From NCBI GenBank assembly GCA_964016885.1, contig OZ024746.1, forward strand, positions 14,570,001 through 14,634,000: a DNA stretch of 64,000 bases, written 5' to 3'. Under the pieces are notes generated by a model. That model had not been told where the DNA came from. It saw only the letters and a program-made list of their open reading frames with translations, and made no database searches. The stretch comes from Eledone cirrhosa (taxonomy: Eukaryota). Shown here piece by piece: positions 12,283-12,700 of this stretch (position 1 is its first letter; each line of letters begins with the position of its first letter). A program made the translations under genes and the position numbers.

Positions 12283-12700
12283 GTAGGAGGTGAGTTTTAT
12301 TGTAGTACAATAAAGCAATGCAGATATCGGATAAGAAGCACTCTACAGTTTGTGGGACTGGAGTATGCATAATATAAGATCAAAAGATGGTTAAAGGAGT
12401 TCAATATATTTTATTATGCGCATTTCAAAAACAAACATCATCAAACAATAATATTTGTGTTTTCATCAGATAAAACAGGAGAACATGATATGAAGGCTAA
12501 AAAAACACTTGTTGATAGTGCAGTTGTTGATATGTTGATTTAAAACTGCACTATCAACAAGTGTTTTTTTAGCCTTCATATCATGTTCTCCTGTTTTATC
12601 TGATGAAAACACAAATATTATTGTTTGATGATGTTTGTTTTTGAAATGCGCATAATAAAATATATTGAACTCCTTTAACCATCTTTTGATCTTATATTAT
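12283..12700 (-). mobile_element. Fold-back hammerhead element, family 1 (PLE pLTR-like)
   Basis: 157-bp inverted arms 12369-12525/12544-12700 with an 18-nt loop; 86-nt tail 12283-12368; (TA)n on both sides; hammerhead in each arm. Confidence 0.9.
12593..12661 (+). ncRNA. Minimal type-I hammerhead ribozyme (mirror copy on - strand at 12408-12476)
   Basis: gttttat-CTGATGA(12600-12606)-stem II (caaatattatt/gatgatgtttg)-GAAA(12643-46)-tgcgca-TA-ataaaat. Stem I is fully paired; stem III is the palindrome atgcgcat. Confidence 0.88.

What the first reader, a model, noticed from the sequence alone, without database searches (positions are those of the whole stretch)
12283..12700. Family-1 fold-back: perfect 157-bp hairpin encoding a hammerhead on both strands
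Seen: perfect arms, an 18-nt loop, and a well-formed minimal hammerhead (stem I gttttat/ataaaat, stem III atgcgcat). Inference: a transcript from either strand contains the ribozyme preceded by its own antisense. It would fold into long dsRNA that blocks cleavage and could be a Dicer/ADAR substrate, potentially silencing the parent family.
Basis: partly seen in the sequence, partly recalled or inferred. Interest (0 to 1): 0.75.

Follow-up and report, generated by a model that had tools for sequence, protein, structure and literature searches.

The report
Two-armed Penelope retrotransposon insertion
The perfect hairpin is one of about 2,600 short back-to-back copies of the end of a Penelope-type jumping gene, likely a by-product of how the element pastes itself in rather than a silencing device, and its junctions likely record where the element's RNA begins.

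Summary
Observation confirmed: arms 12369-12525 and 12544-12700 are 157/157 complementary, the loop is 18 nt, and each arm carries a type I hammerhead with a 2-bp palindromic helix III. It is a truncated insertion, in (TA)n, of the terminal repeat (pLTR) of a 3.7-kb Penelope-like retrotransposon with Hydra-clade motifs. The genome holds about 13,000 ends of this family and 2,591 short head-to-head hammerhead pairs. One arm carries the 86-nt 'tail', the other does not (49 of 50 unselected pairs). Here each arm holds sequence the other lacks, so it is not a self-copied fold-back; two primed cDNAs joined at their ends fit best. Arms start nearly identical and decay independently (47 of 51 private changes lie in one arm), so perfection means youth. 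Arms stop at one fixed site (12530), often with an extra G, likely a capped transcription start; the hammerhead cut site is not a main stop. Read-through RNA would fold into dsRNA, and siRNA from such repeats is published for Drosophila Penelope, but expression here is untested. The scan has reported two-armed Penelope insertions in this genome before.

The parts
12183..12282 (.). left (TA)n-type microsatellite, the insertion target (left boundary approximate)
   Evidence: sequence
12283..12368 (-). 86-nt 'tail' of the pLTR, present on this arm only; its end is one of two fixed outer ends of the family
   Evidence: (12,980 exact matches to its terminal 23-mer)
12369..12525 (-). left arm: tail-bearing pLTR copy, stopped 14 nt short of the fixed inner end
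12408..12476 (-). type I hammerhead, mirror copy; predicted cut between 12415 and 12414
12526..12529 (.). 4 junction bases not in the parent at this place; the last is a G at position -1 of the right arm, where the parent has C (candidate cap-derived base)
12530..12700 (+). right arm: tail-less pLTR copy from the fixed inner end (+1 = 12530, inferred RNA 5' end) to the second, AT-rich outer end
   Evidence: (11 of 15 shown joints land at 12529-12530)
12593..12661 (+). type I hammerhead with palindromic 2-bp helix III; A-U instead of the usual G-C at the base of stem II; predicted cut after 12654
12701..12892 (.). right (TA)n microsatellite (right boundary approximate)
   Evidence: sequence

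Best explanation
This is a short insertion of a Penelope-like retrotransposon's terminal repeat into a TA repeat, likely made when both ends of the cut DNA were extended by reverse transcription and the two new strands were joined back to back. Shown: the parent is a 3.7-kb element with one ORF of about 798 aa (RT plus C-terminal GIY-YIG-type nuclease); insertions are head-to-head; one arm ends at the tail and the other 80-90 nt earlier; both tend to stop at one inner site. Inferred: the nuclease cuts (TA)n on both strands; each 3' end primes at one of two internal start sites on an uncut sense RNA; both cDNAs run towards the RNA's capped 5' end (12530), often gaining a C opposite the cap; their 3' ends join, most often by the self-complementary ATAT. 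The hammerhead on both strands is a passenger of the repeat. Any dsRNA, siRNA or editing would be an incidental result of read-through transcription.
For: Parent: ORFs in L032, L034, L035 flanked by this repeat; 37 homologues, best E 5e-129; motifs aligned. Abundance: 12,980 tail-end matches, 16,505 hammerhead-core matches, 2,591 head-to-head pairs 100-140 nt apart against 8 tail-to-tail at 300-330 nt (a different spacing range). Asymmetry: of 88 junctions, 69 had both outer ends classifiable; 67 were tail + tail-less, 2 tail + tail, 0 tail-less pairs; among the 50 picked without regard to the tail, 49 were mixed. Not a snap-back: in 22 of 67 pairs, this locus included, the tail-less arm reaches further in than the tail arm, so neither arm could have been copied from the other; 40 end level, 5 are nested (hand count). 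Fixed stop: at least one arm ends at +1 in 54 of 67; both in 38; contigs of two runs of one other sample show many left-arm ends joined to 12528-12534. Extra G at -1 in 24 of 31 informative junctions, parent base C; 45 G, 44 T, 11 A among the first 100 of 4,262 non-C matches (counted by eye). No upkeep of pairing: 1.5 differences per 115 nt within pairs, 6.5 between loci; 47 private substitutions in one arm, 4 in both (54 pairs). In vitro, an Anolis PLE cuts and extends both strands, starts at two internal sites that bound the tail, and uses uncut RNA (PMC11167929).
Against: The 40 level-ended and 5 nested pairs are also compatible with self-priming, the model proposed in PMC3846280. The sample is enriched for short pairs and comes almost wholly from contig C1. 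Some -1 G bases can be read as microhomology from the partner arm. No RNA data locate the 5' end. Pfam did not recognise the parent ORF. Target-site duplications cannot be read inside (TA)n. The tail is 86 nt here against 30-40 bp in the papers.
Confidence: 0.85

Rival explanations
1. A selected hairpin-RNA locus that yields siRNA or ADAR-edited RNA and silences the parent family.
For: Full transcript folds into a 157-bp duplex. Penelope inverted repeats gave siRNAs in Drosophila (PMC3681739); lizard Penelope is heavily edited and octopus has abundant dsRNA editing (PMC5625713). Two short A>G clusters in the 3' UTR of both arms of one copy, L145.
Against: Arms decay independently (47 vs 4). 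About 2,600 like structures exist. The family kept amplifying: 18 of 54 pairs are still identical over 115 nt. The inferred own start points away from the hairpin. No host-gene Pfam domain among 150 of 158 window ORFs of 60 aa or more (small exons would be missed). No A>G excess among pLTR singletons (11 A>G, 21 T>C), though DNA records editing only if the edited RNA is re-inserted.
Confidence: 0.06
2. The inverted arm arose by self-priming: one cDNA or antisense RNA folded back and was copied.
For: 17 of 67 pairs have a perfect ATAT-centred palindrome at the junction; arms are near-identical; proposed in PMC3846280.
Against: At this locus and in 22 of 67 pairs each arm has sequence the other lacks; ATAT-centred junctions also follow from two cDNA ends that both finish in ATAT; candidate cap bases occur on either arm, and on both in L085.
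Confidence: 0.07
3. Assembly or library fold-back artefact.
For: No contig in the runs laid spans this exact locus.
Against: Arms are asymmetric with family-wide fixed ends; the same kind of joint stands in contigs of another sample's runs; older pairs have diverged arms.
Confidence: 0.02

Closest known systems
Hydra clade of C-terminal EN+ Penelope-like elements (Craig et al. 2021, PMC8557442), incl. Hydra-1_Obim of Octopus bimaculoides
   Same: Single ORF, RT then GIY-YIG-type nuclease; DKT; CxCX5C linker; CxxC and CxH; no CCHH; hammerhead in the pLTR; (TA)n target; inverted 5'-truncated copy and a one-sided tail.
   Different: A different family from Hydra-1_Obim by eye (other hammerhead and protein sequence; 3.7 kb against 2.5 kb; RWI in place of RWK; long 3' UTR); tail 86 nt; very high copy number.
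Poseidon element of Anolis carolinensis (PAc; Frangieh et al. 2024, PMC11167929)
   Same: Two internal initiation sites bounding the tail; both strands cut and extended; AT-rich target; uncut RNA as template.
   Different: Other clade; here the hammerhead lies about 200 nt upstream of the start codon, not on it; that paper's parts read do not describe a fixed inner stop or extra G.
PLE hammerheads with small palindromic helix III (Cervera and de la Pena 2014, PMC4209133)
   Same: Type I, long helix II, palindromic loop 3, predicted to need a dimer; pairs on opposite strands 100-700 bp apart were already noted there.
   Different: A-U rather than the conserved G-C at the base of helix II, with a C-pyrimidine mismatch at its fourth position that the three other window copies share.
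siRNA-producing inverted Penelope copies in Drosophila (PMC3681739)
   Same: Inverted Penelope repeats as a dsRNA source.
   Different: Not tested here; those siRNAs did not silence efficiently.
L1 twin priming (Ostertag and Kazazian 2001; title seen in a reference list; mechanism recalled)
   Same: Two target ends prime on the element RNA and give an inversion.
   Different: Here the second start is a fixed site and the arms usually overlap, duplicating sequence.

Membership tests
EN+ Penelope-like element | Single ORF with RT and GIY-YIG-type nuclease | tested here: met
   ORF of about 798 aa with YRDDG and C-terminal LIY..YFG..R..E..N; 37 homologues, one with PF00078; Pfam itself gave no hit
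EN+ Penelope-like element | pLTRs from partial tandems, inverted 5'-truncated copy, one-sided tail | tested here: met
   L032 and L035 partial tandems, L034 inverted copy; 67 of 69 pairs with one tail
EN+ Penelope-like element | Hammerhead in the pLTR | tested here: met
Hydra clade | DKG changed to DKT | tested here: met
   HSDKTNNLY; DKTNNLY also in Hydra-1_Obim
Hydra clade | CxCX5C linker; CxxC and CxH beside the conserved E and N; CCHH absent | tested here: met
   CNCPVKNKC, CNLC, CLH; one Cys only between the GIY and YIG equivalents (by eye)
Hydra clade | RWK motif | tested here: inconclusive
   RRLRWIA: RW kept at the aligned place, K replaced; one homologue (P0010) also departs
Hydra clade | Insertion into (TA)n | tested here: met
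   this locus and most of 30 loci
Hydra clade | Generally under 3 kb | tested here: not met
   unit 3,709 nt, owing to a 1.2-kb 3' region; a tendency in the paper, not a diagnostic
Hydra clade | Placement in the clade by RT phylogeny; no IFD | not tested
   published reference proteins were read in the supplement only, no tree was built; assignment rests on motifs
Active hammerhead ribozyme | Self-cleavage at the predicted site | not testable with these tools
   core intact in 168-169 of 173 copies found by a core-tolerant pattern; no clear pile-up of arm ends at the cut site
Non-LTR retrozyme | Non-coding head-to-tail tandem of hammerhead units | tested here: not met
   head-to-head pair; parent is protein-coding
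Hairpin-RNA / endo-siRNA locus | Transcription across both arms and 21-22-nt products | not testable with these tools
   no small-RNA data available

The most novel reading that the evidence does not exclude
The junctions are a genomic record of the Penelope insertion intermediate: both ends of the cut TA repeat are extended on an uncut, capped sense RNA from two fixed starts, both run off the same capped 5' end inside the pLTR, and the two cDNA ends are joined. This would map a PLE transcription start to the base from DNA alone and replace the antisense self-priming model for head-to-head repeats. I found no such description in three paper searches; earlier notes of this scan have the two-armed model, and the ones shown do not mention the extra G.
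Probability: 0.6. Interest if true: 0.55.

Novelty: new member of a known kind. Interest (0 to 1): 0.3.

Why it matters
The hairpin itself is ordinary for this class of element. Its value is as one of thousands of young, readable insertion footprints: how PLEs form inverted repeats is stated as open in PMC8557442 and PMC3846280, and the fixed stop with an extra G gives a base-exact prediction for 5' RACE. If the host is a cephalopod, as the nearest named homologue and earlier notes suggest (not shown here), about 2,600 such hairpins from one family would also be a ready source of the long dsRNA linked to heavy editing.

Tried and rejected
DNA search of G000 with the right arm found nothing because common words are skipped; patterns were used instead. 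A 27-mer over the left arm and junction matched this locus only. Rfam: no hammerhead model matched; weak miRNA matches are due to the hairpin shape. Run search: no RNA holder listed; runs are contigs of unrecorded kind, so expression was not assessed; X4 held one 151-nt piece only. In vivo cleavage test: 86 matches begin at the predicted cut with two non-parent bases before it, against 60 one base downstream and 36 two bases upstream; of 30 inspected about 11 were true inverted junctions and the rest mostly small indels; neighbours were not classified, so inconclusive. ADAR footprint in short arms: none. The small hairpins that earlier notes place beyond both ends: a weak hairpin in the tail (z -1.86), none predicted beyond the tail end (z 0.46); not confirmed by folding alone. 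Host exons: only RT-related Pfam hits in 150 of 158 window ORFs; 8 window ORFs and 39 flank ORFs were not scanned. Retrozyme and MITE readings rejected because the parent is a coding PLE and the arms are asymmetric.

Full report
Observation. The inverted repeat is as described: arms 12369-12525 and 12544-12700, 157 of 157 bases complementary, 18 nt between them, flanked on both sides by (TA)n. Each arm carries a type I hammerhead (+ 12593-12661, - 12476-12408) with a 7-bp stem I, a long stem II and a 2-bp helix III closed by the palindrome UGCGCA; the predicted cut is after 12654. Rfam has no matching model. An alignment of this copy, 12 recurrent family variants and three other hammerhead copies from the window gives 98% paired cells and 9 of 17 pairs with changes on both sides, against 41-59% paired for slid structures. 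The base of stem II is A-U rather than the G-C that PMC4209133 calls highly conserved (parts 1-2 of 4 read).

What it belongs to. The terminal 23-mer has 12,980 exact matches in the 3.0-Gb genome and the hammerhead core 20-mer 16,505. Longer stretches show the parent: a 3,709-nt unit in partial tandem, with one ORF of about 798 aa in L032 and related ORFs in L034 and L035. Pfam does not recognise it, but 37 homologues were found, best E 5e-129. The protein has YRDDG, DKT, a CxCX5C linker, a C-terminal GIY-YIG-type domain without CCHH, and CxxC and CxH motifs. These are the features given for the Hydra clade in PMC8557442 (section 11 read whole, passages and supplement passages seen). RWK is RWI here and the unit is longer than usual; no tree was built. 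By eye it is not the published Hydra-1_Obim. The host is not identified; the only named homologue is from Argonauta (36% identity) and earlier notes call the genome octopus-like.

How common the hairpin is. A pattern for two hammerhead cores back to back, 100-140 nt apart, matches 2,591 loci; the opposite orientation at 300-330 nt matches 8. The window itself holds similar pairs of other families at 39999-40322 and 41132-41490. An inverted truncated copy and a one-sided tail are textbook PLE features, and opposite-strand hammerhead pairs were noted in 2014.

Anatomy across copies. Mapping the fetched loci to one real copy gave 88 distinct head-to-head junctions. In 69 both outer ends could be classed (the other 19 ran into an internal microsatellite or off the stretch): 67 pair a tail-bearing arm with a tail-less arm, 2 have two tails, none has two tail-less arms. 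Among the 50 loci chosen without regard to the tail, 49 are mixed. At least one arm stops at the same inner base (window 12530) in 54 of 67, both in 38 (this sample favours short pairs). Contigs from two runs of another sample show left arms of many lengths joined to 12528-12534, so neither the stop nor the inversion is an artefact of this assembly. In 22 of 67 pairs the tail-less arm reaches further in than the tail arm; 40 end level and 5 are nested (hand count, with two mutated motifs reassigned). This locus is non-nested: the left arm alone has the tail and the right arm alone has 12530-12543, so neither could have been copied from the other.

The inner stop. It lies 125 nt upstream of the hammerhead cut, so it is not a ribozyme product. 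The parent has C at -1; 24 of 31 informative junctions have G there, some GG, one on both arms; genome-wide the first 100 of 4,262 non-C matches are 45 G, 44 T, 11 A. An untemplated 5' G is taken as a sign of cap copying for L1 (PMC9341517, passages). Some G bases may be microhomology. I infer a capped start at 12530. In 17 of 67 pairs the arms overlap by ATAT, which two cDNA ends finishing in ATAT would give by annealing. Arm ends at the predicted cut are few (at most 86) and not clearly above neighbouring positions.

Why the arms are perfect. Over a 115-nt segment, partners differ by 1.5 on average and unrelated loci by 6.5; 18 of 54 pairs are identical; locus-private substitutions lie in one arm 47 times and in both 4 times. 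Arms therefore start alike and drift apart; this copy belongs to a young subfamily, with 7 other loci identical in that segment.

Mechanism. Shown by others in vitro for an Anolis PLE: cutting and extension of both strands at AT-rich DNA, two internal start sites bounding the tail, uncut RNA as template, and a hammerhead that cleaves only with the protein (PMC11167929, parts 1-2 of 4). Inferred here: both ends of a cut (TA)n prime on sense RNA, one at the tail end and one at the AT-rich patch near 12693-12700; the cDNAs run to the 5' end or meet earlier and are joined. The self-priming model of PMC3846280 (passages) remains possible for level-ended pairs only.

A read-through transcript would abolish the hammerhead fold. 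Precedent exists: siRNAs matched the inverted regions of Penelope copies in Drosophila and did not silence efficiently (PMC3681739, passages); lizard Penelope is heavily edited (PMC5625713, passages). But a transcript from the inferred own start would leave the loop outward and contain no antisense, transcription of this locus is unshown, and pairing is not maintained. One copy, L145, has nine A>G changes in two short 3' UTR stretches in both arms, a weak hint that family RNA is sometimes edited. PMC13282606 (passages) lists recently active Penelope families in Octopus vulgaris without mention of hammerheads; bioRxiv 10.64898/2026.07.22.740005 (part 1 of 5) links retrozymes to pLTRs.

Verdict. 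A real feature and an ordinary product of a known class of retrotransposon; new family of a known kind. The scan has already described two-armed PLE insertions in this genome. Interest 0.3.

Noticed in passing
window 39999-40322 and 192-291: Another head-to-head hammerhead pair beside (TA)n, of a different family, with a further copy near the window start; same stem II pattern with a C-C mismatch.
   Followed up: partly
window 41132-41490: Head-to-head pair of a third family with a hammerhead whose helix III palindrome is TGATCA.
   Followed up: partly
window 40543-41056, 20883-21102, about 18675-18790: Further inverted repeats next to (TA)n, without the CUGANGA core in my scan.
   Followed up: no
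window 13472-13557, 13576-13640, 13946-14010: Three more short fragments of the same family (older subfamily) within 1.7 kb, each set in (TA)n.
   Followed up: partly
window 58210-58252: A compact minimal hammerhead-like motif (CUGAUGA, short stem II, GAAA) of another type.
   Followed up: no
window 35743-39500: Broken non-LTR retrotransposon with RT and a C-terminal zinc-knuckle/endonuclease region, resembling the R4/Dong group (label recalled).
   Followed up: no
window 16949-17911 (-) and 51662-52354 (-): LINE fragments (RVT_1 + DUF6451; zf-RVT).
   Followed up: no
L145 (G000:C1:1137300-1143600): Full-length copy with an 880-bp inverted arm; clustered A>G changes in the 3' UTR repeats of both arms; 38-nt foreign insert ending in poly(A) at the junction; the long arm begins 4 nt after the upstream tail end.
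   Followed up: partly
L032:6953-8725 (-): Helitron-like helicase ORFs next to the full-length element (label recalled, not searched).
   Followed up: no
L032, L035 ORF residues about 570-650: An 80-aa Asn/Thr/Pro-rich insert between RT and linker, absent from homologues; recalls the N-rich inserts of Adineta Penelopes.
   Followed up: no
window 1010-1172, 34413-34595, 56353-56890: Dispersed SINE-like repeat family of about 170 nt.
   Followed up: no
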